Shown here piece by piece: positions 42,452 through 60,219 of a DNA stretch of 64,000 nucleotides. Both the position numbers and the translations under genes were made by a program. The DNA comes from Rubripirellula sp. (GTDB lineage Bacteria > Planctomycetota > Planctomycetia > Pirellulales > Pirellulaceae). The notes beneath the pieces were generated by a model. It was not told where the DNA came from. It worked only from the letters and a program-made list of their open reading frames with translations, and searched no databases. Position 1 is the stretch's first letter. Each line of letters begins with the position of its first letter. The DNA lies in NCBI GenBank assembly GCA_965216875.1, contig OZ244207.1, positions 5,376,001 to 5,440,000 of the forward strand. The letters are read 5' to 3'.

Positions 42452-42692
42452 GTAGGCCGGATCAAGGAGCGACAGCGACGCAGATCCGGCACTCCCGCCA
42501 CGCGTCATCCGCACCGTTCGTCCTCCGCCCTTGGGCGCCTTTGGGCGGAATGAGAGAAGATTCCGGCTAAAGCTCGGTACTACGAACGAGTCTTCCCTCC
42601 ACGCGTCGTAGCTACCTTCGCCAGAAGGTGGTCCGTGTTGGCTCGCCAAATCAGATCGCTAGCGGAAGATTCCGGCTAAAGCTCGGTACTAC
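42452..42692. repeat. REP-like cluster: family A copy 3, family C twice, family E
   Basis: Copies at 42452-42490, 42554-42587, 42608-42631 and 42665-42692. Confidence 0.85.
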
Positions 42693-43225
42693 ATACGGGG
42701 GGCCGTGAACAAAACACCAAAATTTGTTGGCGGGGTTTTCCCCTCAGCAGACCTACACCCTTTTAGGCACGAAGCCCACCGAATCCGGGGGCCATTTGGT
42801 CTCGAAAGCTACCCGGGTTTGCCGCACGAACGATGGGACAAATGAACGGGCACTTGTTCCATTGGCGGGTGCGATTTTGTGTTGGGGCACCGCTACTTTC
42901 GTCTTCTCCGATAAGTAGCGGTCATCACCAATCGCACCCGCCCGTGTGCTCGGCAATTGCACAGCCCGTGTGCTCGGCTACATTCGTTGCTACAGCAGTC
43001 TGCCACCGCCCCAACAGCTTCTGTGCGTGAACACCATCCACGCTCAGCCCACCTGATCATTCCCCACCCCCAATCTCCCCTGTCAGGGAAGCCCCGACAC
43101 CCGCCAAAGCAGCAGAATACATCGCTGATGCGATTTGATATTTTGTTTGTATTACATACGTCAGTCACTATGGTGTGGTGCTCATGCTGATCCTGTAATG
43201 GGTTCCAAGGTACGGCTGGTAAACC

Positions 43226-43819
43226 GTGACTCCATCAGAGTTTGATTCCGGAGGCCTGTCGCAGACCGATCGTTCACTTGTTGTGCTTGTACGTGGTGGC
43301 GATGAAGACGCTGCGACAGCATTGTACGAACGCTATGCGCGACGGGTGTTTGGGTTGGTTGAAGCTCAACTCGGTGAGCGGCTGCGCGCAAACACGGAAC
43401 CCGAAGACGTCGTTCAATCCGTCTTCAAGAGCATGTTCCGTGGTGTTCAAGCGGGACACTACGACGCTCCCCCAGGCACAACGCTCTGGAATCTGCTGGC
43501 GGTGATCGCCGTCCATAAACTGCGCCGAAAAGCGGGCCACCACTCAGCCAAGCGGCGCGACACCAAACGTAATATTTCGCTTGAAACGCTCGAAGAGGGC
43601 GTCGGGCTCGACCCCTCGTCGCTTGAGTTCCTTCAAGTCACCGTCCGAGAAACGCTCGAATTGCTGCGACCGATCGACCGCGAGATCCTATCGCTAAGGA
43701 TTCAAAGGTACACCGTTGACGAGATCAGCGCTGAACTGGGCCGCAGCCGACGGACGGTCGAACGAAGCCTGCAGCGCAGTCGCGAAAGACTCGCCGACCT
43801 TTTGCTCGACGAAAAGTAG
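43226..43819 (+). CDS. ECF RNA polymerase sigma factor
   Basis: GDEDAATALYERY, PEDVVQSVF, AKRRD; region 4 DEISAELGRSRRTVER. Confidence 0.92.
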   Translation: MTPSEFDSGGLSQTDRSLVVLVRGGDEDAATALYERYARRVFGLVEAQLGERLRANTEPEDVVQSVFKSMFRGVQAGHYDAPPGTTLWNLLAVIAVHKLRRKAGHHSAKRRDTKRNISLETLEEGVGLDPSSLEFLQVTVRETLELLRPIDREILSLRIQRYTVDEISAELGRSRRTVERSLQRSRERLADLLLDEK

Positions 43820-43982: not shown

Positions 43983-46900
43983 ATGATCAATAAGAGTAGC
44001 GTCGACCAACTTGATGAAGCCATTGATTGCTTCGAACGTGATTGGTCTCCGAGGTCCCTTGGAGGCATCCGGTCGCTGCTGAACCAATTTGATCTTGGTA
44101 ACGACCATTCAGCGATCACCGAGCTGATTCGGATCGACATCGAGCTACGTTACAACCACGGCCTCTCTTTTCCGTTGGACGACTACTTCCGCGAATTTGA
44201 CGGGCTGCTGACGAGCCCAGAAAGCGTGGCCCAAATTGCGTTTGAGGACTATCGAAGTCGGGTTGCCCACGGACACTCAATGGCCGTTTCTCGTTGGCAA
44301 CAACTGCCCGGTATTGGTGATCAGAGTTGGTATCGCGATTTGGTTGGCAAAACGAGCGCTCGCAAATCCCAGCTCAAGAACCGACCGCCGATCGGGACGG
44401 TGGCCGATGTTGGGTTTGAAGAAGCGCTTGAAAAGATCGGCTTTCGACTTGTCGAAGAACTCGGCAGCGGCGCGTTCAGCAAAGTCTACCTTGCAACGCA
44501 AGATGATCTGGCCGATCGTCACGTGGTGTTGAAAGTCGTGCGGCAAGCGCTCGCCGAACCCCAAAACATGGCGATGTTGCAGCACACCAACATCGTGCCA
44601 ATCTATTCGTTCCATCGCATTCAATCGCGATCGGTGATCTGCATGCCCTATGCCGGTGGGCTGACGTTGTCGGACTACCTTTCGTGCGACGATCAAGCAT
44701 CTTCCCGAGGCGGCCAAGGTTTGGTTAGCACCGTGCTTAACCAAGCGCATGACACGGTGGTCGACAGCGAGCCAACCGATGCCGAAGACGACAACAACCA
44801 AAACGGTTCGACACGAGTCCTACATCCAAGTGATCTCAAGAAGCCGCTCGAGTCGCTGCAAGACCTCGACTGCAGTGAGCTTGCGTTATGGATTTTTGGA
44901 CGGCTCGCTGGCGCACTCGCACACTCACACGCGCGTGGCTTGCTTCACGGCGACCTCAAACCCGCCAACGTTCTGATCCGAAACGACGGCGAACCAGCAC
45001 TACTCGACTTTAACCTCGCCCAGTCACTCGACCGCAAACAGATCGCACATGTTGGCGGCACCTTGCCCTACATGCCGCCTGAATCGTATCGCGCATTGAT
45101 GGGCCAATCGTTGGCTCCTCATTCATCGTCTGACGTGTATGCGTTGGGGGTGATGCTCTATGAATTCGTCACGGGCCGACTCCCTTATTCGGCGCCGCAA
45201 TCAACCAGTGCGAGTGACCTTGAACCGGCGATCAAAGACCGTAGCAATCCGGTGCAATGGCGCAGCGAAGACTCGGGCAGCCCAGGCTTGCGACGCATCG
45301 TTGAGCGTTGCCTCCTCGCCGAACCAGACCAACGATACTCGGCCGAACAGCTTCGCGAGGATTTGCAGCGAGAAAGCGAAAACAAGTCGCTCAGCCATAC
45401 GACCGAACCGACCACCTATCAAGCGACCAAGTGGCTCAAGCGTCATCCAAAAGCCGTCTCTGCCTCAACAGCCGGCGTGCTATTGATCTGCCTAATGATT
45501 CCTCTGGGCCTTGTTGCCATTGGGCTCAAGCAACAGTCGGATCATATGTCGGTCGTCGCTCAAATGGATGCGTTTGCTGACAGATCAGCCGACGTTCTGT
45601 CGACAACCATCGTCAATCCGCTTCGCCACCAAGACGATCTGATCGTCGCCGCGCTCGAACCGCTCGAAGAGTTTGGGATCCTCAACCCCGATCGTGAAAA
45701 CGAATTCCAATCGGCTTTGCTGACCCCCGAGCAGATCGAACAACACCGCGACACCGCCTTTCGACATGTCGCGCAAGTGGCCTATGCGGAAATCGACTGG
45801 CTCTCTTCGCGAAACGAGGCTGCCATCGACAGAGCCTCGCGCAAGCGATTGGACCGTTTGGTCGATGCGGCCGAGCGCATCCAAGGCGACATTCCTTCGC
45901 GAGCACTACTGTTCATTCGTGCTGACCAGGCCCTCCTGTCGGGCAAAACCGACCAATTCAAGAAGCTCTCGAAAAAGGCTGCCAAGGTCTTGTTGTCCGA
46001 TTCCAATGACACCGAACGCTATCTCGAAGCGATTCGTTTGTACAAGGAACGAGAATACGCCGAGGCAAGAAAACAACTTACTGAATTGGCGGACAGCGAC
46101 ATTCCGTCGGCTCTGCGTTGGACCATGCTTGGACGAGCACAGTTTCAATCGGGAAAATACGAAGACGCAAAACTTTCGTTCACTCAGTCCATCGAGCACG
46201 CCCCGACCGCATCGCGGCTTTGGTATCTACGTGCCCGTTGTTTCACGGCCACAAACATGTATCGTCGGGCTGCCGATGACCTTTCCAAGGCAATCGACCT
46301 CGAACCCGACCTCACTACGGCATGGACGCTGCGTGGCCTCTGCTACGAGAACATGAAACGGTTCGATGACGCGGTGGCGGACCAAACCGAAGCTCTCAAG
46401 CACTCGCCAAACAACCCGCACGTCTTGTTACTGCGTAGCCGAGCATTCGGAAAACTGAATCTCAAAGAACGGGCCGATGCAGACTACCGAGCCGCGTTGG
46501 AATCGGAGTCGCTTGTGCCGGCCGACTTGATCACTCGAGCGACCGCGCGCGTCAAACGCGGCGACCCCGAAGGCGCACTCGAAGACCTCGAACTCGCATT
46601 TCAACGCAGCCGGCGCGACGCAGGAATCCTTCAAGATAAGGCGTCCGTCCTTTGCAAACTGGGCCGCTACGAGGAAGCAATTGCGTCGCTCCAACAGGCC
46701 GTCGAGCTTGACCCCAGTCGTGAACAGTCGCTGATCGATGCCGCTGTCCTCTTGGCCCGATTTGGACAGGAGAAGCAAGCGAAGAGCTACCTTCGTAAGG
46801 CCATCCGTCCACCAAACAAACCTCGAACGCTTTATCAAGCCGCGTGTGCCAACGCGCTGCTAGGCGAGAACTACCATAAGCGAGCGCTCCCGTTGCTCGC

Positions 46901-47054
46901 CAAAGCACTTCAGTCCGGATACGGAGCGGAGGAGATCAGCCTTGATGACGATCTTGATTCGCTTCGTGAGTACTCCGACTTCAGATCAATGTTAAAAACC
47001 GTCGAATTGGGCAACCGACTTGTGGAAAAGAAAGCATCACGTAAACAACCCTAG
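43983..47054 (+). CDS. Ser/Thr protein kinase with a TM helix and C-terminal TPR array
   Basis: GSGAFSKV, VVLK, HGDLKPAN, DFN, GTLPYMPPE, DVYALG; TM helix; many TPRs. Confidence 0.93.
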   Translation: MINKSSVDQLDEAIDCFERDWSPRSLGGIRSLLNQFDLGNDHSAITELIRIDIELRYNHGLSFPLDDYFREFDGLLTSPESVAQIAFEDYRSRVAHGHSMAVSRWQQLPGIGDQSWYRDLVGKTSARKSQLKNRPPIGTVADVGFEEALEKIGFRLVEELGSGAFSKVYLATQDDLADRHVVLKVVRQALAEPQNMAMLQHTNIVPIYSFHRIQSRSVICMPYAGGLTLSDYLSCDDQASSRGGQGLVSTVLNQAHDTVVDSEPTDAEDDNNQNGSTRVLHPSDLKKPLESLQDLDCSELALWIFGRLAGALAHSHARGLLHGDLKPANVLIRNDGEPALLDFNLAQSLDRKQIAHVGGTLPYMPPESYRALMGQSLAPHSSSDVYALGVMLYEFVTGRLPYSAPQSTSASDLEPAIKDRSNPVQWRSEDSGSPGLRRIVERCLLAEPDQRYSAEQLREDLQRESENKSLSHTTEPTTYQATKWLKRHPKAVSASTAGVLLICLMIPLGLVAIGLKQQSDHMSVVAQMDAFADRSADVLSTTIVNPLRHQDDLIVAALEPLEEFGILNPDRENEFQSALLTPEQIEQHRDTAFRHVAQVAYAEIDWLSSRNEAAIDRASRKRLDRLVDAAERIQGDIPSRALLFIRADQALLSGKTDQFKKLSKKAAKVLLSDSNDTERYLEAIRLYKEREYAEARKQLTELADSDIPSALRWTMLGRAQFQSGKYEDAKLSFTQSIEHAPTASRLWYLRARCFTATNMYRRAADDLSKAIDLEPDLTTAWTLRGLCYENMKRFDDAVADQTEALKHSPNNPHVLLLRSRAFGKLNLKERADADYRAALESESLVPADLITRATARVKRGDPEGALEDLELAFQRSRRDAGILQDKASVLCKLGRYEEAIASLQQAVELDPSREQSLIDAAVLLARFGQEKQAKSYLRKAIRPPNKPRTLYQAACANALLGENYHKRALPLLAKALQSGYGAEEISLDDDLDSLREYSDFRSMLKTVELGNRLVEKKASRKQP

Positions 47055-47083: not shown

Positions 47084-49120
47084 ATGAAGACCCCAACGAG
47101 ACACCGTCGCCCCGCATCAAAAAGGATTGAGATCGAACCGCTTGAGTCACGCCAATTGCTTGCCGCATTCGGCACACCGTGGCCCAACCCAAGAGAATTG
47201 ACCATCAGCTTCCCTACGGATGGAGTTGCAATCGGTCAGCACCCGAACGACCTTCACGCAACGCTTGACACCATCTCGGCGAGAAGCGAGTGGCAAGAGC
47301 TTGCACTGCGTGCGTACCAAACGTGGTCCGTGTACGCCGACGTCAACGTTGGCCTAAGGAATGACCACAACGTCGCATTTGGAACGGCGGGAATGTCGGT
47401 CAACGACCCGCGTTTCGGAGAGTTTCGCATTGGAGCTTTCCCACAAGGTGGTGTGCTTGCCAACTCGATTCCGTTTCAAGCATCGGCCGGAACCTACTCC
47501 GGTGATTTGCTTCTGAATTCGAACGAGCCGTTCTTCTATCACGACTGGGCCGGTGGTGTGCCACCGGCTCCCAGTTCCTACAAAGGCTACGAGCGAGATT
47601 TGTTTAGCCTGTTGCTTCACGAGTCGGGCAACACGCTGGGAGTGGATGATAACAAGACGCCACACTCGGTGATGTTTCGGCAATACACCGTCCCCAAGGG
47701 AACGCTTTCGCAGAGCGACATCGACAGCATTCAAGCCATTTATGGTGCGCGCACGGACCCGTTTGAACTTGTCGACAACGGCCAGCTTCAGCTGGCGACG
47801 TTGGTTTCCACTCCAGTTGGATTCCAAACCGCGTCGGATGTGATTTCTGTTTCGGGCAGTTTGAAGGACGCTGCGGATGTTGATTACTACGAAGTGACCC
47901 CCGCAAGCGGGCAAGACGATGTAACTGTCCGACTTCGAGCTGCTGGCATATCGTTGTTGACCTCCAAGGTCGATGTGCTTGATGTCAATGGCAATGTCCT
48001 TGGATCGGCGAGCGCAGCCTCGGCGTTTGACAACGACAACGAAATCAACCTCAGCGGACTGAGCGGCCACTCGGTGATCTACATTCGCGTCGCGAGCGCG
48101 AACCAAGATATCTACGGAATCGGCGATTACAAAATCGAAGTCGACTACCGGGACGCGACCGTCAAGGCATCCGACCCAACGCCCAAGGCGCACGATGGCG
48201 GTGTTGACTCGCTCTTTACCAATTTTGCGATTGCCGACGACGAGCAGGGCATCAACGACACGCTCGCGTCGGCGGGCACCCTCAACCATGCCACTGGCTT
48301 TGCTCCCCAAACCCGCTACGAGATCGTCTCGGCAGTATCATCGCTAACCGATGTCGACTACCTGAAAGTCCCTGGCACGAGTGTTGCCGGTCGTTTGATG
48401 GTGCACCTTTCTGGTGTTGGCTTGGATCAACCCGGGATGGACCTGAAGATTGTTGACACAAACGATCAACCGGTCGGAGCATCGGGCCGCCTACGACCAG
48501 ATGGATCGTGGGTGCTTGTCGTGAATCAGCCCGTCGTCAATGCAGACTACTATCTGCGTATCAGCGTGGATCCAACGTCCGCCGTCAGTGTCGGCAACTA
48601 TGTCGCGTCAGCAGAATTTGTTCCTTCCGACACGCCGCATCACATGACAAGTGGCTCGGTCTCTTCTATCGAAGAAGACTTCATTCGCTGGACGGCCGAC
48701 AAGTCAAAGTTGTTTCGATTCGACCTGTTCGCAAGTGGCGGTGCGAGAAACGAACTGGCACGGATTGTCATCTATGACGCTCACACCAAAGAAATCAAAC
48801 TCGCGTTCGCGGCGCGGTCCGACGCGGCACGAAGCGCCCACGTCTGGCTCGAGCAGGGCGACTACATCATTCGATTCACTGCCATCTCGCGCACCGGCAA
48901 TCCCGTCGACAATATCAACTACCGGCTCGAATGCCACGGCATTTCCGATGACCAGGATCCCGACGACCACGACCCACAAGACGACGACGGGCACAACCCT
49001 TATTACTACTACGAATACCAGTACTACGATTACAACACCGACCCAGGCAGCTCCGACTACTACGGGTATTATTATGGGTACGGAAGTGACCCCGAACCCC
49101 ATCCCACCAATACGCCATAG
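47084..49120 (+). CDS. Exported matrixin-like protein with a degenerate zinc motif, PPC-like domains and an Asp/Tyr-rich tail
   Basis: IEPLESRQLLA export motif; ALRAYQTW; HESGNTLGVDD plus SVM Met-turn; repeated DVDYY/DVDYL modules; Tyr-rich C-terminus. Confidence 0.85.
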   Translation: MKTPTRHRRPASKRIEIEPLESRQLLAAFGTPWPNPRELTISFPTDGVAIGQHPNDLHATLDTISARSEWQELALRAYQTWSVYADVNVGLRNDHNVAFGTAGMSVNDPRFGEFRIGAFPQGGVLANSIPFQASAGTYSGDLLLNSNEPFFYHDWAGGVPPAPSSYKGYERDLFSLLLHESGNTLGVDDNKTPHSVMFRQYTVPKGTLSQSDIDSIQAIYGARTDPFELVDNGQLQLATLVSTPVGFQTASDVISVSGSLKDAADVDYYEVTPASGQDDVTVRLRAAGISLLTSKVDVLDVNGNVLGSASAASAFDNDNEINLSGLSGHSVIYIRVASANQDIYGIGDYKIEVDYRDATVKASDPTPKAHDGGVDSLFTNFAIADDEQGINDTLASAGTLNHATGFAPQTRYEIVSAVSSLTDVDYLKVPGTSVAGRLMVHLSGVGLDQPGMDLKIVDTNDQPVGASGRLRPDGSWVLVVNQPVVNADYYLRISVDPTSAVSVGNYVASAEFVPSDTPHHMTSGSVSSIEEDFIRWTADKSKLFRFDLFASGGARNELARIVIYDAHTKEIKLAFAARSDAARSAHVWLEQGDYIIRFTAISRTGNPVDNINYRLECHGISDDQDPDDHDPQDDDGHNPYYYYEYQYYDYNTDPGSSDYYGYYYGYGSDPEPHPTNTP

Positions 49121-49122
49121 GC

Positions 49123-51117
49123 ATGGTTGTGAGCTTGGACAAGCTCGAAGCTCTTTTTGAGCAGGCCACGAGCCCACTACGCAGTTCCGTTCTGCAAGAC
49201 AGAAGTGCTGTCCTACGTGAAGCAAAACGCCGTCATGCGCGAGATCCAAACGATCGTGTCGCCATGCGGTCGGTCGCGGCTGCACTTCTGTGTAACAACC
49301 AGCCGGCCGAGTCGCTTGCTCTCTTGCAACGCGATCCTACGATCGCAGACGATCCCCTATGGCACCGACTCGTTGCCCACGCGCACTTGGCATTGAATGA
49401 CGGGCAGCGGGCTCTCGATCACCTTCAGCTGGCGATCCGCTCGGACCCCTGTCAGAGCGATGACTGGAATCTGATCGGGCATCTCTATGCACAGAGCAAT
49501 CAAACGGACAAAGCGATTGAGCATTTCCAACGCTCATTGGTCATCGACGATGTCAATCACGAGGCATCGATCGCGTTGAGTCAGCTTCTGGTCGATCAGG
49601 ACAGACCAAATGACGCGATCGACACCTTACGCGTCAGTATTCTAAAGGACCGCCGATCCGCAACGCTTAACCGAGCGCTCGGACAGTTGCTTGAACACCA
49701 AGCGTTGAGGCTTCGCAGGCGGCGAGCGTGGCGTTTGCATCGTAAGATCCTCGAAGAAGCGGTGGACTGCTACGAGATCGTTTCGGCGTCCGCCCCTGAT
49801 GCTGAAACGCTGGTCCGCTTGGCCGGTATCCTGCGACTCCTCGATCGGCATGACGAATCAACTGCGGCATTGCGAAAAGCCATCGAAGTCGATCCGCTGT
49901 CAGCAGAAGCGTACGCACAACTGGCCAATGTCCATGTCGAGAAAGGCGAAATGGATGCAGCCGCGGTTCTGTTTGAAAAATCACTACGCGCCAACCCCAA
50001 CCGTTCCGGCACGTACTTTCGCTTCACGCGAGCTAAAAAGTTCAAACCGGGCGATGAGTCAGATCAATACCTGGCACAGATTCGCAAGCTGCTTGCCGAT
50101 CCAACGTTGCGACGCCCCGACTTGGTGCCACTGCATTTCGCAGCCGCGAAAATCTTGGATGACACTCAGCAGTACGCGGATGCCTGGCTTCACTACGACG
50201 CCGGAAATCGACTGAAACCGGGTCACAGCGATAACCGCGAGAATCCTCAACGGAGTCAACTTGTTCAAACGGTCAAACGCACCATCGAGGTGTTTGACGA
50301 CGCGTTCTTCGACGGCAGGGTTCCCTCTCCATCGGCCGATCGACGACCGATCTTCATTATCGGCATGCCGCGGTCGGGCACGACATTGACCGAACAGATC
50401 GTTAGCAGCCACCCGTCCGTTATGGGCGCGGGCGAATTGAAAGAGATCGATCGCATCCGTCAACAGATCGTCAAGGACCACACCCAGTACGCTCAGAATC
50501 AAACTCCGGAAGTGCCACTCCAAGAGCTGTACCCTGCGATCCTCTCGACTGTCGACGGCCGCTACCTCGACGACCTGACTCAGCGTCATCTCGACTACTT
50601 AAGAGAGCTCGGCGGCGACTGCCAGTACGTGACCGACAAGATGCCAACCAACTTCTTGCACCTCGGGTTGATCGCGACACTCTTCCCTGGCGCGACCATC
50701 ATTCATTGCCGTCGAAACCCGATGGATGTACTCGTCTCTTGTTACTGCCAAAACCTGAGCGCGCCCTTTTGTGACCTGGAAGCTTTGATCGAGTACCACG
50801 GACTCTACCGAAGGCTCATGCGACATTGGCAGAGCGTGCTCCCGCTTCCTATCCATACGGTTGATTACGAAGAGCTGGTCACCGACCCCGAATCCAATGT
50901 CCGAGCGCTGATCGAGCATTGTGGCTTGCCTTGGGATGCGCGTTGTTTGGATTTCCAATCCAACAAACGAAGCGTCCAAACACCAAGCAAGTGGCAAGTC
51001 CGACAACCGATGTACTCGACATCCGTTGCTAAATGGAAACGCTTCGAACCGCAACTACGAGAGATTGCCGAGAGGATCGAAGAGGAAATGCGATCCGAGG
51101 CTACGTCCGGCTCCTAG
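49123..51117 (+). CDS. TPR-containing PAPS-dependent sulfotransferase
   Basis: N-terminal TPRs; 5'-PSB PIFIIGMPRSGTT; DKMP; 3'-PB RRNPMDVLVS; YEELVTDPE; QVRQPMY. Confidence 0.93.
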   Translation: MVVSLDKLEALFEQATSPLRSSVLQDRSAVLREAKRRHARDPNDRVAMRSVAAALLCNNQPAESLALLQRDPTIADDPLWHRLVAHAHLALNDGQRALDHLQLAIRSDPCQSDDWNLIGHLYAQSNQTDKAIEHFQRSLVIDDVNHEASIALSQLLVDQDRPNDAIDTLRVSILKDRRSATLNRALGQLLEHQALRLRRRRAWRLHRKILEEAVDCYEIVSASAPDAETLVRLAGILRLLDRHDESTAALRKAIEVDPLSAEAYAQLANVHVEKGEMDAAAVLFEKSLRANPNRSGTYFRFTRAKKFKPGDESDQYLAQIRKLLADPTLRRPDLVPLHFAAAKILDDTQQYADAWLHYDAGNRLKPGHSDNRENPQRSQLVQTVKRTIEVFDDAFFDGRVPSPSADRRPIFIIGMPRSGTTLTEQIVSSHPSVMGAGELKEIDRIRQQIVKDHTQYAQNQTPEVPLQELYPAILSTVDGRYLDDLTQRHLDYLRELGGDCQYVTDKMPTNFLHLGLIATLFPGATIIHCRRNPMDVLVSCYCQNLSAPFCDLEALIEYHGLYRRLMRHWQSVLPLPIHTVDYEELVTDPESNVRALIEHCGLPWDARCLDFQSNKRSVQTPSKWQVRQPMYSTSVAKWKRFEPQLREIAERIEEEMRSEATSGS

Positions 51118-56818: not shown

Positions 56819-58657
56819 ATGCTGATCCTACGTACACTCCAAGTCGGCCTCGTTGCCCTCTTGGTCTTCTCAAGCGTTCCAGTGGACGCGGGCACATTCG
56901 AAGTCGAATCCCGCGCCGATGTCGCGTTGATGAAACGCAAGGTTCGGGCTGCTCAATTCTTGCACCGCGCCACGTTTGGTCCAACGCTCGAAGACATCGA
57001 TCAACTCGCTGCTCGGATGCGGCAGATCGGAACTCGTCGCGCTTGCGAAGAATGGATCAACGAGCAATTTGAGATCCCTGCGACGCTGCATGAACCGCTC
57101 GCGATTCAAATGATCCAAGACGACGGGTTCACCACCAATCAAAACAACGTCTGGATCCAACGTTTTCGCTATCACGCTTGGTGGCACAACTCACTGACCG
57201 CCGAAGACCAATTACGTCAGCGTGTCGCTTGGGCCCTGATTCAAATCCTTGTCACCAGCGAAGACGGCGCCGGATTCAACGATGCCAACCTCGGTAACGT
57301 TTCGGGCATCGGCCGCTGGCTGGGACCTACAAACTATTACGACATGTTGCTGAAGAACTCTTTCGGCAACTACCGCGAATTGCTCGAAGACGTCACCTAC
57401 CATCCGATCATGGGCGTCTACTTGAGCCACATGCGCAATCGCAAATCGAACGGAGTGCGATTCCCCGATGAAAACTACGCACGAGAGATCATGCAGCTGT
57501 TCACCATCGGCTTGTATGAACTTCATCTCGATGGTCGGCTGAAGACAGATGACGAAGGGAACCTCATCCCGACTTACGACAACGAAACAATCAAGAGCTT
57601 CGCTCGCGTCTTTACGGGCCTGACGTTCCAACCGGCCAACAATAACAACCACCCGTTTTGGAGCGGCAATGACTTTGAGTATCCCATGGTCATGTACGCC
57701 CCCGAGCATGACACCGATCCCAAAACGCTGCTCCGCGGCGAAGTGGTCGACCTGGACGACCCGGACGCCGAAATCAAAGCAGCGATCGAAAACCTGTTCA
57801 ACCATGAAAACATCGCGCCCTTTATCGCTCGACGATTGATTCAGCGGTTCGTCAAAAGCAATCCTTCACGTGCTTACATTCGCCGCGTTGCAAGAAAGTT
57901 CGAAAACAACGGCCAAGGCGAACGTGGTGACCTGAAAGCCGTTATCAAAGCAGTCCTCCTCGACCCTGAATGTTGGCGGAGTGTCCGAATTCGGGGCCTT
58001 CGTAGTCCCAACCGCGTCGAAGTAACGCCCCGCGGAACGGAATACTCGCGATTGCGTGAACCAGTGATTCGCTACACCTCGATGCTTCGCGCCGTCAACG
58101 TGACCAGCACGTACCACACCGGCCGAATGATGGTTTCGCCCCAATCGTGGAACTGGACACAAGAACCCTATCAATCGCCCAGCGTCTTCAACTTCTGGTT
58201 GCCTGATTACCAACCTCCGGGCGAACTATCGCGACACCCACCTTCGCGACGCATTCCCAATGGAGCGCTCTACGCACCCGAGTTTCAAATGAAGACAGCC
58301 GTGACATCCAACCGGTTGGTCAACCGCTACATCTGGGACATCAGTGGCCAGCGTTCGCGTCACTACCTCAGCAACAGTAACTACACGATGGATTGTGAAT
58401 TGCTGTTCGACCTCGAGCGTCAAAAAACGTATGCGACCGAAGATGACGACATGCACAAGCTATTGGACGAATTCGACTTGGTCTATTGCTGTGGATCGAT
58501 GCCGCAAGACTACAAAGATCGGATCGTCGAAGTCGTCAACGATCGAACGCAGTGGATGAAGAACAATGCCCAGTACCGGCCAGAGCTCGAAAATGCTCGA
58601 GTCGAAAGCGCGTTGATCGCCGTTGTCACCTCACCCTTCTGTGCTGTGTCCGAATAG
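56819..58657 (+). CDS. DUF1800 family exported protein
   Basis: FLHRATFGP, DQLRQRVAWAL, PDENYAREIMQLFTIG, SNPS, LREP, PSVFNF. Confidence 0.88.
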   Translation: MLILRTLQVGLVALLVFSSVPVDAGTFEVESRADVALMKRKVRAAQFLHRATFGPTLEDIDQLAARMRQIGTRRACEEWINEQFEIPATLHEPLAIQMIQDDGFTTNQNNVWIQRFRYHAWWHNSLTAEDQLRQRVAWALIQILVTSEDGAGFNDANLGNVSGIGRWLGPTNYYDMLLKNSFGNYRELLEDVTYHPIMGVYLSHMRNRKSNGVRFPDENYAREIMQLFTIGLYELHLDGRLKTDDEGNLIPTYDNETIKSFARVFTGLTFQPANNNNHPFWSGNDFEYPMVMYAPEHDTDPKTLLRGEVVDLDDPDAEIKAAIENLFNHENIAPFIARRLIQRFVKSNPSRAYIRRVARKFENNGQGERGDLKAVIKAVLLDPECWRSVRIRGLRSPNRVEVTPRGTEYSRLREPVIRYTSMLRAVNVTSTYHTGRMMVSPQSWNWTQEPYQSPSVFNFWLPDYQPPGELSRHPPSRRIPNGALYAPEFQMKTAVTSNRLVNRYIWDISGQRSRHYLSNSNYTMDCELLFDLERQKTYATEDDDMHKLLDEFDLVYCCGSMPQDYKDRIVEVVNDRTQWMKNNAQYRPELENARVESALIAVVTSPFCAVSE

Positions 58658-58749
58658 ACACATTTGCCGAGTGGACACCGGGTCACTCTTCGTTTCACAC
58701 AACTCCTCACCAAACATCATCGCAGTCAACAAGTCGCTGGAACGTCGCC

Positions 58750-60219
58750 ATGAAACAAGCCGTCAAGATTAGCCGCGATTCTCTGTCTCGCCGCAACCTG
58801 ATGAAGTCCGCTGGCGGATGCGCTGCGCTAACCAGCACGTCGCTCCTGTCGACCATGTTCAACCTCTCGGCGACCAATGCCTTGATGGCTCAGGGAACAT
58901 CGATCAACGATTACAAAGCGATCGTTTGCTTGTTCCTGTTCGGTGGCAACGACTCGTACAACATGCTTTCGCCCACGACCGCTGGAGAGCGCGAAGCGTA
59001 TGTGACTGCGCGCGGCGGTCTGCACACCGAAGTCAACGGCGCACTTGGACTTGAACTCGATTCGCTGCATCAAATCACTGACGGCCCGTCGGGACGCACC
59101 TTCGGCATCCACAATTCGATGCCGGAAATGAAAACACTTTACGATGCTGGTGACCTAACGTTCCTGTGCAATGTCGGCAGTCTGGTCCGTCCAACCACCA
59201 TGGCCGACTATCAAGCACAGACGAATCTGCCACTTGGACTCTTTTCACACAGTGACCTGCAACAACACTGGATGACCTCGGTCCCACAAACGCGTTCGCA
59301 GGTCACCGGTTGGGCTGGCCGCATGGCGGACCTGTTGACCGCTTCGACGAATACCAACGACAGCATCTCGATGAACATTTCGTTGAACAACGTTAACATG
59401 CTGCAAACCGGCAACAGCGTCGTGCCTTACGTCGTGACCTCCGGCGGAGCCCAGGAAGTGGGCTGGTACGGACCAACGTGGACTCAGGCCGACATCTTTA
59501 CCACGCTGACTGACGATGTTCTGTCGCGCACCTATGGCAACTTGGTCGAAAAGACCTTTGCTCAAGGCAACCGCAACGCGCTCGACGCTGCGATCGCTTA
59601 CAACCAAGCGACGTCGCAAGTCACATCCGTCAACGACTTCTTCCCTGACGAAAACGATCCCAACACGCCAAATCCAACGTCGCTCCAGCAACAGATGCGA
59701 ATGGTGGCTCGCGCGATCGGCGCCAATCAAACGCTCGGTCATAAACGCCAAGTCTTTTTCGTCAGCCACTTTGGTTGGGACAATCATGACGAATTGATCA
59801 ACAACCAGAATTACAACTTGATGGTGGTCAGCCAGGCGCTCAAGAACTTCTATGACGCCATCGATGACCTCGGCCTTGGCAATGATGTCCTGACCTTCAC
59901 GGCGAGCGACTTTGCTCGAACACTCAATAGCAACGGCCAAGGCTCGGATCACGCTTGGGGCGGAAACCAAATCATCATGGGCGGTGGCGTCAACGGTGGC
60001 CGTATCTATGGCGACTATCCGTCGTCGCTGGCACCAGGCAACTCACTCGACCTCGGCCGTGGACGCTTGTTGCCAACGACAAGCGTCGACGAAATGTCGG
60101 CCGAAATCGCAATGTGGTATGGGGTCGGCAACAACCAAGATCTTGTCGATGTCTTGCCAAACATTCGAAGTTTCCCATCCGCCAACACCGGCACCCGTCC
60201 AATCGGATTCCTCAGCTAA
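58750..60219 (+). CDS. DUF1501 family protein with a Tat signal
   Basis: SRRNLMK, YKAIVCLFLFGGNDS, LFSHSD, GWDNH, SDFART, GSDHAWG. Confidence 0.9.
   Translation: MKQAVKISRDSLSRRNLMKSAGGCAALTSTSLLSTMFNLSATNALMAQGTSINDYKAIVCLFLFGGNDSYNMLSPTTAGEREAYVTARGGLHTEVNGALGLELDSLHQITDGPSGRTFGIHNSMPEMKTLYDAGDLTFLCNVGSLVRPTTMADYQAQTNLPLGLFSHSDLQQHWMTSVPQTRSQVTGWAGRMADLLTASTNTNDSISMNISLNNVNMLQTGNSVVPYVVTSGGAQEVGWYGPTWTQADIFTTLTDDVLSRTYGNLVEKTFAQGNRNALDAAIAYNQATSQVTSVNDFFPDENDPNTPNPTSLQQQMRMVARAIGANQTLGHKRQVFFVSHFGWDNHDELINNQNYNLMVVSQALKNFYDAIDDLGLGNDVLTFTASDFARTLNSNGQGSDHAWGGNQIIMGGGVNGGRIYGDYPSSLAPGNSLDLGRGRLLPTTSVDEMSAEIAMWYGVGNNQDLVDVLPNIRSFPSANTGTRPIGFLS

What the first reader, a model, noticed from the sequence alone, without database searches (positions are those of the whole stretch)
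47084..51117. Candidate bacterial protein tyrosine-sulfation module: an exported protein with an acidic poly-Tyr tail next to a TPR sulfotransferase
Seen: the 47084-49120 protein ends DDQDPDDHDPQDDDGHNP-YYYYEYQYYDYNTDPGSSDYYGYYYGY-GSDPEPHPTNTP, with 14 Tyr in 27 codons (49001-49081). A sulfotransferase gene (GMPRSGTT, TPRs, no evident signal peptide) starts 2 nt after its stop. Known: tyrosylprotein sulfotransferases share the PRSGTT PAPS loop and favour Tyr in Asp/Glu-rich disordered segments, and Xanthomonas RaxST sulfates the neighbouring-encoded RaxX before export. Inference: the TPRs bind this substrate, and the tail is multiply sulfated in the cytoplasm before export via the LESRQLLA route, giving a polyanionic surface tag or released sulfopeptide. 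PRSGTT is also found in sugar and lipid sulfotransferases, so the substrate is a hypothesis.
Basis: partly seen in the sequence, partly recalled or inferred. Interest (0 to 1): 0.88.

Follow-up and report, generated by a model that had tools for sequence, protein, structure and literature searches.

The report
Sulfotransferase paired with poly-tyrosine protein tail
A planctomycete bacterium encodes a protein ending in an acidic, tyrosine-packed tail directly before an enzyme resembling animal protein-tyrosine sulfotransferases, a pairing kept in close relatives, so the enzyme likely sulfates that tail before the protein's predicted export, which would extend a modification barely known in bacteria.

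Summary
Observation confirmed: 14 Tyr in 27 codons, the densest in the genome.

For tail sulfation:
- The enzyme follows the gene in 21 of 21 testable clade-A loci and 0 of 66 other family loci.
- Clade-A tails are 31% Tyr, 29% Asp/Glu, 0.2% Lys/Arg, 0.6% Phe.
- Closest solved relatives are TPST1/2, catalytic Arg/Glu/Lys invariant.
- This clade's TPR arm is basic, unlike other planctomycete homologues.
- The sister clade, with a shorter Tyr cluster, has a glycosyltransferase in the same slot (5 loci).

Against: the linkage is one evolutionary event; most other family members lack Tyr-rich neighbours; NoeE and CurM (non-protein substrates) also score; no structure or activity data.

Likely (0.65) a dedicated tail-sulfation module: a new variant of RaxST-type bacterial tyrosine sulfation.

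The parts
43226..43819 (+). ECF sigma factor, first gene of the module
   Evidence: Sigma70_ECF E 1.7e-13; an ECF homologue lies about 3 kb upstream in most of the 60 family loci
43983..47054 (+). Hanks-type Ser/Thr kinase with one predicted membrane helix (aa 497-515) and a C-terminal, probably periplasmic TPR array
   Evidence: Pkinase E 2.2e-35 and TPRs; hydropathy; kinase hit in 59 of 60 family loci
47084..49120 (+). P0001: matrixin-like protein with beta-sandwich-like repeats and a poly-Tyr acidic tail; candidate substrate
47129..47167 (+). N-terminal planctomycete motif (LESRQLLA), putative export signal
   Evidence: PF07595 17 bits, below cut-off 25.5; L20, E21, R23 at least 90% conserved; export role only 'thought to' (PMC8567305)
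47444..47746 (+). Peptidase_M10 (matrixin) domain
   Evidence: E 8.9e-8; best solved relative MMP-13, E 8.5e-6
47618..47650 (+). Altered zinc motif HESGNTLGVDD (2nd ligand His to Asn, 3rd His to Asp)
   Evidence: Asn and Asp in all 117 of 120 homologues in which the motif could be located; aligned to MMP-13
48944..49117 (+). Acidic low-complexity tail, 58 aa, containing the 14-Tyr cluster at 49001-49081
49123..51117 (+). P0002: TPR sulfotransferase without signal peptide, the only member of its family in this genome
49708..49746 (+). Polybasic stretch RLRRRRAWRLHRK, inside a clade-specific insert of about 14 residues in the TPR arm
50347..51051 (+). TPST-like PAPS-dependent sulfotransferase domain with R417, E438, K506, R531, S539, S622
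   Evidence: all six invariant in 102 of 102 aligned homologues; profile best hits TPST1/tick TPST/TPST2

Best explanation
The TPR sulfotransferase likely grips the acidic tail of the matrixin-like protein encoded just before it, using its basic TPR arm, and likely transfers sulfate from PAPS onto tail tyrosines in the cytoplasm before the protein's predicted export. Shown: gene order, tail composition and its conservation, strict adjacency within the clade, TPST-type catalytic residues, the basic arm, APS kinase genes in the genome. Inferred: binding, sulfation, the number of sites (perhaps starting at the few Asp/Glu-Tyr sites and spreading, as tick TPST does), export by the planctomycete N-terminal motif, and control of the operon by the kinase-activated ECF sigma. 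The product would be a surface or secreted, probably non-proteolytic matrixin-fold protein with a strongly polyanionic sulfo-tail. The fourth gene looks like a swappable tail-tailoring slot, filled by a glycosyltransferase in the sister clade.
For: Adjacency: 21 of 21 clade-A loci with at least 2 kb downstream, 0 of 66 other family loci (two of the 21 carry identical matrixin cores). All 23 other genomes with a clade-A gene carry a top-tier enzyme. Tails keep composition, not sequence: 30.9% Tyr, 28.8% Asp/Glu, 0.2% Lys/Arg, 0.6% Phe, 0.6% Trp in 80 tails, against 7.9% Tyr, 5.2% Phe, 3.8% Trp in 34 tails of the next group; this points to the phenolic OH, not aromatic bulk. Profile search of solved structures: TPST1 2e-23, tick TPST 4e-23, TPST2 3e-19, ahead of CurM 4e-17 and cytosolic SULTs at 4.5e-9 or weaker. 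R417/E438/K506 align with the TPST Arg/Glu/Lys (tick Arg74/Glu95/Lys154 in PMC10951654). Net charge of the 330 aa before the catalytic domain: +3.9+-1.7 per 100 aa (20 clade-A enzymes) vs -3.2+-2.1 (42 other planctomycete homologues); the kinase TPRs of the same operons show no shift (-1.3 vs -1.6). Sister clade with 7-10 terminal Tyr has a GT-B glycosyltransferase directly downstream in 5 loci, while its Tyr-poor member L055 does not. The enzyme's nearest outside relatives (L138-L140) precede giant motif-bearing proteins with 7.1-7.7% Tyr over their first 2,000 residues. L151 has a 660-aa protein with 67 Tyr and 31% Asp/Glu two genes from its enzyme. Two APS kinase genes in the genome.
Against: Clade A is one monophyletic group, so tail, linkage and basic arm are one evolutionary event, not 21. 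Of 55 other planctomycete loci of this enzyme family only 7 have an adjacent ORF with 5% Tyr or more. Tyr-rich tails exist without an adjacent sulfotransferase (L065, L068, sister clade; L074 at a contig end), and G054 and G127 have no close family member at all. The closest named bacterial family is NoeE, a Nod-factor sugar sulfotransferase (63 of 68 members, far below cut-off). A lanthipeptide sulfotransferase also has TPST1 as its nearest structure yet differs in substrate (PMC11143521). Only 3 of 14 Tyr in P0001 have Asp/Glu at -1 (median 3 per tail, range 0-11). The export motif is below cut-off and unproven.
Confidence: 0.65

Rival explanations
1. The enzyme sulfates a sugar, glycan or small hydroxylated molecule. 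It is co-regulated by the ECF/kinase system, and the Tyr tail serves another purpose such as binding or sorting.
For: NoeE is the closest named NCBIfam family; CurM and a polyketide-synthase sulfotransferase rank right after the TPSTs. The same glycosyltransferase family is fused to a TPR sulfotransferase in L124 and L128, so glycan sulfation is possible in the family. Sulfation and glycosylation are also the two classic ways to conjugate small phenols (recalled).
Against: 13 of 23 clade-A genomes have no match to that glycosyltransferase at E<=1e-10. It does not explain the basic TPR arm or the Tyr-for-Phe/Trp switch in the tails. The genome's three other strong Sulfotransfer_3 hits are distant from this family.
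Confidence: 0.15
2. The enzyme is a general protein-tyrosine sulfotransferase for several exported proteins. The adjacent tail is at most one substrate among many, or mainly a docking handle.
For: P0002 is the only family member in this genome. 3 of 44 motif-bearing proteins reach 10 Tyr per 27 residues, against 1 of 6,185 others. Elsewhere the family often lies beside very large or motif-bearing proteins (17 and 8 of 55 loci).
Against: A search with one of the two other Tyr-rich proteins found only it and its paralogue in this genome, nothing in 300 family genomes, whereas the tail-enzyme pair is constant across clade A.
Confidence: 0.12
3. Hitch-hiking: a sulfotransferase gene landed behind the operon once and was inherited with it, while the tail drifted to Tyr/Asp low complexity independently.
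For: Single origin; aromatic-ending, low-complexity tails are common in distant family members without the enzyme.
Against: No loss or rearrangement in 21 of 21 loci at 49-65% identity; complementary charge change in the enzyme; a second modifying enzyme in the same slot in the sister clade.
Confidence: 0.08

Closest known systems
Xanthomonas RaxST-RaxX (bacterial tyrosine sulfation; PMC9372746, PMC4216712)
   Same: Cytoplasmic TPST-like enzyme encoded beside its candidate substrate; modification would precede secretion; PAPS genes present in the genome.
   Different: RaxX is a 60-residue peptide precursor exported by a type I system. Here the candidate is a 678-aa multi-domain protein with a median 15 tail Tyr, no type I genes in the module, a TPR arm on the enzyme, and an ECF/kinase pair upstream. 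RaxST itself was not compared.
Metazoan tyrosylprotein sulfotransferases TPST1/TPST2 and tick TPST (PDB 5wri, 3ap1, 8w5z)
   Same: Best solved relatives; catalytic Arg, Glu, Lys aligned, Arg-to-Glu spacing of 21 kept; acidic disordered Tyr tracts resemble their substrates.
   Different: No Golgi membrane anchor; an N-terminal TPR array of about 400 aa; substrate-binding arginines only partly kept (position 444 is Arg in 41 of 102).
Kinase-associated planctomycete ECF groups (ECF59-62 and related; PMC7826278)
   Same: ECF sigma followed by a Ser/Thr kinase, no anti-sigma gene in the module.
   Different: The downstream matrixin-like gene and tailoring enzyme are not mentioned in the passages read. 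The ECF group number was not determined.
Matrixins / metzincins (M10, MMP-13)
   Same: M10 domain match, catalytic Glu kept, Met-turn-like Met197.
   Different: Second and third zinc ligands are Asn and Asp in all 117 located motifs, so canonical zinc binding is lost.
NoeE, CurM and olefin-synthase sulfotransferases (non-protein acceptors)
   Same: Related fold family by sequence.
   Different: Lower scores than the TPSTs in the solved-structure search; NoeE match covers only model positions 11-136 of 387 and is far below its cut-off.

Membership tests
TPST-type protein-tyrosine sulfotransferase | 5'-PSB loop with catalytic Arg and 3'-PB Arg/Ser | tested here: met
   R417, R531, S539 invariant in 102 of 102; aligned to TPST1
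TPST-type protein-tyrosine sulfotransferase | Catalytic base Glu 21 residues after the Arg, and the transfer Lys | tested here: met
   E438 and K506 invariant; tick Arg74/Glu95/Lys154 (PMC10951654)
TPST-type protein-tyrosine sulfotransferase | TPSTs are the closest characterised relatives | tested here: inconclusive
   First among solved structures, but CurM is within a few orders of magnitude and NoeE is the closest NCBIfam model; no tree with characterised enzymes was built
TPST-type protein-tyrosine sulfotransferase | Peptide-binding cleft superposable on that of TPST | not testable with these tools
TPST-type protein-tyrosine sulfotransferase | Transfers sulfate from PAPS to peptidyl-tyrosine | not testable with these tools
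   Needs an enzyme assay
RaxST-RaxX sulfopeptide system | Short peptide precursor exported by an adjacent type I secretion system | tested here: not met
   The neighbour is a 678-aa protein; the module genes are ECF, kinase, matrixin-like protein and enzyme
RaxST-RaxX sulfopeptide system | Orthology of the enzyme to RaxST | not tested
   No RaxST sequence was returned by any search
RaxST-RaxX sulfopeptide system | Cytoplasmic enzyme and PAPS supply | tested here: met
   No hydrophobic N-terminus; two APS kinase domains; ATP sulfurylase not searched separately
Active matrixin (M10 metzincin) | HExxHxxGxxH zinc motif | tested here: not met
   HExxNxxGxxD in P0001 and in all 117 located motifs
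PF07595 planctomycete extracellular proteins | N-terminal RRLxxExLExRxLLA motif above the Pfam cut-off | tested here: inconclusive
   17 bits vs 25.5; 26 of 70 members at E<=0.01; core residues conserved
Kinase-associated ECF module | ECF sigma next to a Ser/Thr kinase, no anti-sigma | tested here: met
   phosphorylation itself not testable

The most novel reading that the evidence does not exclude
Planctomycetes run a signalling cassette in which an exported pseudo-protease carries a C-terminal tyrosine code that is written by a swappable enzyme (sulfate in this clade, sugar in the sister clade) and read by the periplasmic TPR array of the co-encoded receptor kinase to switch on its ECF sigma: a bacterial counterpart of plant sulfopeptide-receptor kinase signalling. 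More widely, the thousands of unstudied TPR sulfotransferases would be the main bacterial protein-tyrosine sulfotransferases.
Probability: 0.15. Interest if true: 0.92.

Novelty: new variant of a known kind. Interest (0 to 1): 0.72.

Why it matters
A 2022 review states that most bacteria do not encode TPST and names only Xanthomonas (PMC9372746, section 4). Yet TPR sulfotransferases are a large family: 1,719 hits among the 8,000 candidates scored. This locus offers an unusually clean enzyme-substrate candidate, testable with a 58-residue synthetic peptide. A positive result would assign a function to the family, show poly-tyrosine sulfation of a bacterial surface protein, and supply a soluble enzyme for making multiply sulfated peptides. 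The sister-clade swap also predicts an undescribed single-enzyme tyrosine glycosyltransferase.

Tried and rejected

Expression: no RNA holder listed; the four runs laid gave only scattered short contigs in one run. No inference drawn.

Promoter scan: 0 sigma-70-like sites, terminator-like hits near chance (15 vs 10.4+-3.1). Uninformative for an ECF operon.

The genome-contig scan with the single protein returned one weak, irrelevant record.

Tail as kinase ligand, judged by bulk charge: no shift in clade A and no correlation (rho -0.01 over 68 loci).

DOPA/tyrosinase adhesive idea: no PF00264 match in the genome, but the control rang nowhere, so this is inconclusive.

An acid-flanked-Tyr score underrated P0001's own tail because Tyr crowd out the acids; not used for the main counts.

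A matrixin profile found nothing in the five genomes with sister or candidate enzymes (no positive control).

Sequence artefact: rejected, since Tyr codons are mixed TAT/TAC and the tail recurs in 80 homologues with different sequences.

Earlier-finding look-ups by sequence, place and other word sets returned nothing.
Full report
OBSERVATION. P0001 (47084-49120, 678 aa) ends as quoted. Its 14 Tyr in 27 codons are the highest count among 31,222 six-frame ORFs of the genome; 6 ORFs reach 9 or more. P0002 starts 2 nt after the stop and combines TPRs with a Sulfotransfer_3 domain (E 1.9e-46). Neither protein has a hydrophobic N-terminus.

ANATOMY. The pair is the second half of a same-strand run: ECF sigma (43226-43819), Ser/Thr kinase with one membrane helix and C-terminal TPRs (43983-47054), P0001, P0002, with gaps of 163, 29 and 2 nt. 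Co-transcription was not shown. P0001 has a weak planctomycete N-terminal motif (PF07595, below cut-off), a matrixin domain, a middle region with only weak Ig/PPC-like matches, and the tail. Its zinc motif reads HExxNxxGxxD. All 117 of the 120 best homologues in which the motif could be located have Asn and Asp there, while many distant relatives keep His-His. It is therefore probably not a canonical zinc protease (inference; inactive metzincins with changed motifs are reported in PMC5086652, abstract only). Named homologues come from Stieleria, Rubripirellula and Roseiconus. Kinase-associated ECFs are a known planctomycete type thought to be activated by phosphorylation (PMC7826278, passages).

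DO TAIL AND ENZYME TRAVEL TOGETHER? I fetched 60 genome loci chosen from the best-scoring matches metagenome loci. Homologues at 48% identity or more (clade A; monophyletic with 100% local support) gave 28 loci. Of these, 21 had a closed ORF and at least 2 kb downstream, and all 21 have the enzyme there; 7 were dropped as truncated. Of 110 other loci, 66 were testable and none has it. Two of the 21 (L032, L177) carry identical matrixin cores. One dropped locus, L178, shows the TPR half of the enzyme before its contig ends. Among 300 family genomes, all 23 with a clade-A gene have an enzyme at E<1e-77; the one extra genome at that level, G138, is 73% complete with the enzyme at a contig start. 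This is one origin followed by strict retention, not 21 independent events.

THE TAIL. In 80 clade-A tails (3 of 83 rows dropped, tail start not located) the mean length is 50 aa with 30.9% Tyr, 28.8% Asp/Glu, 0.2% Lys/Arg, 0.6% Phe and 0.6% Trp; Tyr number runs from 8 to 34, median 15. The sequences differ freely. The next group (34 of 38 rows kept) has 7.9% Tyr, 5.2% Phe, 3.8% Trp and 21.9% Pro. Selection for Tyr over other aromatics points to the hydroxyl group (inference). Against heavy sulfation, Asp/Glu-Tyr pairs number only 3 in P0001 (median 3, range 0-11), and TPST substrates mostly have Asp just before the Tyr (PMC9372746, section 4). Tick TPST, however, is helped by a prior sulfotyrosine at -3 (PMC10951654, passages), which would allow spreading.

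THE ENZYME. The single domain and a 68-sequence profile both rank TPST1, tick TPST and TPST2 first among solved structures (profile E 2e-23, 4e-23, 3e-19), then CurM (4e-17), a polyketide synthase domain (3e-14) and the rest at 4e-9 or weaker. R417, E438, K506, R531, S539 and S622 are invariant in 102 of 102 homologues. The first three align with the TPST catalytic Arg, Glu and Lys; that S622 matches a catalytic Ser of TPST2 is recalled. These residues do not prove the substrate. NoeE is the closest NCBIfam model (63 of 68 members, far below cut-off), a lanthipeptide sulfotransferase also has TPST1 as nearest structure (PMC11143521, passages), and that CurM uses a similar triad is recalled.

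More specific is charge. The 330 residues before the catalytic domain carry +3.9+-1.7 net charges per 100 aa in 20 of 23 clade-A enzymes long enough to score, against -3.2+-2.1 in 42 of 57 others. A basic insert of about 14 residues was seen in all 15 clade-A-type rows printed and in neither of the 2 distant rows printed. The kinase TPR regions of the same operons do not shift (-1.3 in 23 vs -1.6 in 45), and genome G041 holds both a basic clade-A enzyme (+2.4) and an acidic paralogue (-5.2). A basic arm beside an acidic tail fits direct docking (inference).

INDEPENDENT HINTS. First, the sister clade, whose tails end in a shorter Tyr cluster, has a GT-B glycosyltransferase directly downstream in L050, L051, L053, L054 and L273; its Tyr-poor member L055 does not. 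Its best solved relatives are small-molecule glycosyltransferases such as YjiC. Its homologue in the window's genome precedes a 1,125-aa protein with 6.8% Tyr. 7 of 25 further loci of this glycosyltransferase have a neighbour with 5% Tyr or more, against 2.4% expected from this genome. Second, the sulfotransferases closest to clade A (L138-L140, one genus) precede motif-bearing giant proteins with 7.1-7.7% Tyr over their first 2,000 residues. Third, L151 has a 660-aa protein with 67 Tyr and 31% Asp/Glu, separated from its enzyme by a sulfate-symporter-like gene. These tallies use mechanical ORF picks, a background from one genome and related genomes, so they are leads, not statistics.

RESULTS AGAINST. 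Only 7 of 55 other loci of the enzyme family have a Tyr-rich adjacent ORF; 8 have a motif-bearing and 17 a neighbour of 1,000 aa or more. Tyr-rich tails without an adjacent sulfotransferase exist (L065, L068; L074 at a contig end), and G054 and G127 have no close family member. The glycosyltransferase is fused to a TPR sulfotransferase in L124 and L128, which keeps glycan sulfation open, although 13 of 23 clade-A genomes lack a match to it. Export rests on a motif only 'thought to' be a signal (PMC8567305, section 19). No structure, complex or expression evidence was obtained.

MECHANISM. Most likely (0.65): the ECF/kinase pair drives the operon; P0001 is made without a classical signal peptide and so stays accessible in the cytoplasm; P0002 docks on the acidic tail with its basic arm and sulfates several tyrosines using PAPS (two APS kinase domains); the protein then leaves by the planctomycete route. 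The gene layout, conservation, residues and charges are shown; docking, sulfation, regulation and export are inferred. Rivals: non-protein acceptor (0.15), general protein enzyme with several targets (0.12; P0002 is the only family member here and two other motif proteins are Tyr-dense), hitch-hiking (0.08).

COMPARISON AND NOVELTY. It works like RaxST-RaxX (PMC4216712, first of two parts read; PMC9372746) but is not that system: no short precursor, no type I genes. It is not an active matrixin by motif. Searches of the open-access library found no paper for 'tyrosylprotein sulfotransferase + prokaryotic + tetratricopeptide' or 'Planctomycetes + sulfotyrosine'. The 11 papers listed for planctomycete ECF/kinase/matrixin terms did not point to this module by title; I read passages of three (PMC7826278, PMC8567305, PMC11032199). 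None of the 10 listed of 115 metzincin papers contained HEXXN. Subscription journals and supplements were not seen; the ECF group tables in the supplements of PMC7826278 may mention the neighbourhood. Earlier AI notes of this scan report similar enzyme-beside-exported-protein pairings in other phyla; I did not check them and do not count them as support.

VERDICT. Real, conserved and well suited to a direct test; a new variant of bacterial tyrosine sulfation if confirmed. Interest 0.72.

Noticed in passing
L050:6822-8003, L051:912-2138, L053:911-2077, L054:4228-5391 (P0241), L273:998-2161: An unnamed GT-B glycosyltransferase family fills the fourth slot in the sister clade and recurs beside Tyr-rich or motif-bearing exported proteins; candidate single-enzyme tyrosine glycosyltransferase.
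   Followed up: partly
L263:6323-11146 (G000:C1:1407319-1412146, minus strand): In the window's own genome that glycosyltransferase directly precedes a 1,125-aa motif-bearing protein with 6.8% Tyr and 19% Asp/Glu.
   Followed up: partly
L261:6089-9655 and L262:6192-9857 (G000:C1:101085-104645 and 5844224-5847859): Two paralogous orphan proteins with the N-terminal motif and internal Gly-Tyr-Asp tracts (10 and 11 Tyr per 27); no match in 300 family genomes; possible substrates in trans.
   Followed up: partly
L124:6258-9857 and L128:6044-9553: Fusion proteins: glycosyltransferase at the N-terminus, TPRs, sulfotransferase at the C-terminus.
   Followed up: partly
L151:520-6512: TPR sulfotransferase, a sodium:sulfate symporter-like gene on the other strand, then a signal-peptide protein made of Asp/Glu-Tyr-Tyr repeats (67 Tyr).
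   Followed up: partly
window 47618-47650 and homologues L028-L066, L068: The HExxN..D zinc motif marks a larger clade than the Tyr tail, so it predates the sulfotransferase; an invariant altered metal site of unknown use.
   Followed up: partly
L059, L068, L196, L207, L210, L212, L216, L230, L234, L245: Many distant family members end in aromatic residues after a Pro/Ser/Thr-rich linker, suggesting an older role of the C-terminus as a binding or sorting signal.
   Followed up: no
L051, L053, L054, L273: In these sister loci an ECF sigma gene lies downstream on the opposite strand, after the glycosyltransferase.
   Followed up: no
L158, L162, L163, L166, L167, L147, L119, L170: Other planctomycete TPR sulfotransferases lie beside giant surface proteins (GEVED, SdrD, RTX-repeat, FG-GAP) that are not Tyr-rich overall.
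   Followed up: partly
L039 (G001) and L043 (G279): Clade-A genes with a frameshift and with an assembly gap; the Tyr tail is still present in each.
   Followed up: yes
window 42560-42700: A stretch of about 30 nt occurs twice in the intergenic region upstream of the ECF gene (near 42559 and 42667), seen by eye; reads from one run have loose ends here, as for a dispersed repeat.
   Followed up: no
window 56819-60219: Two adjacent genes that look like the common DUF1800/DUF1501 pair (label recalled, not scanned).
   Followed up: no
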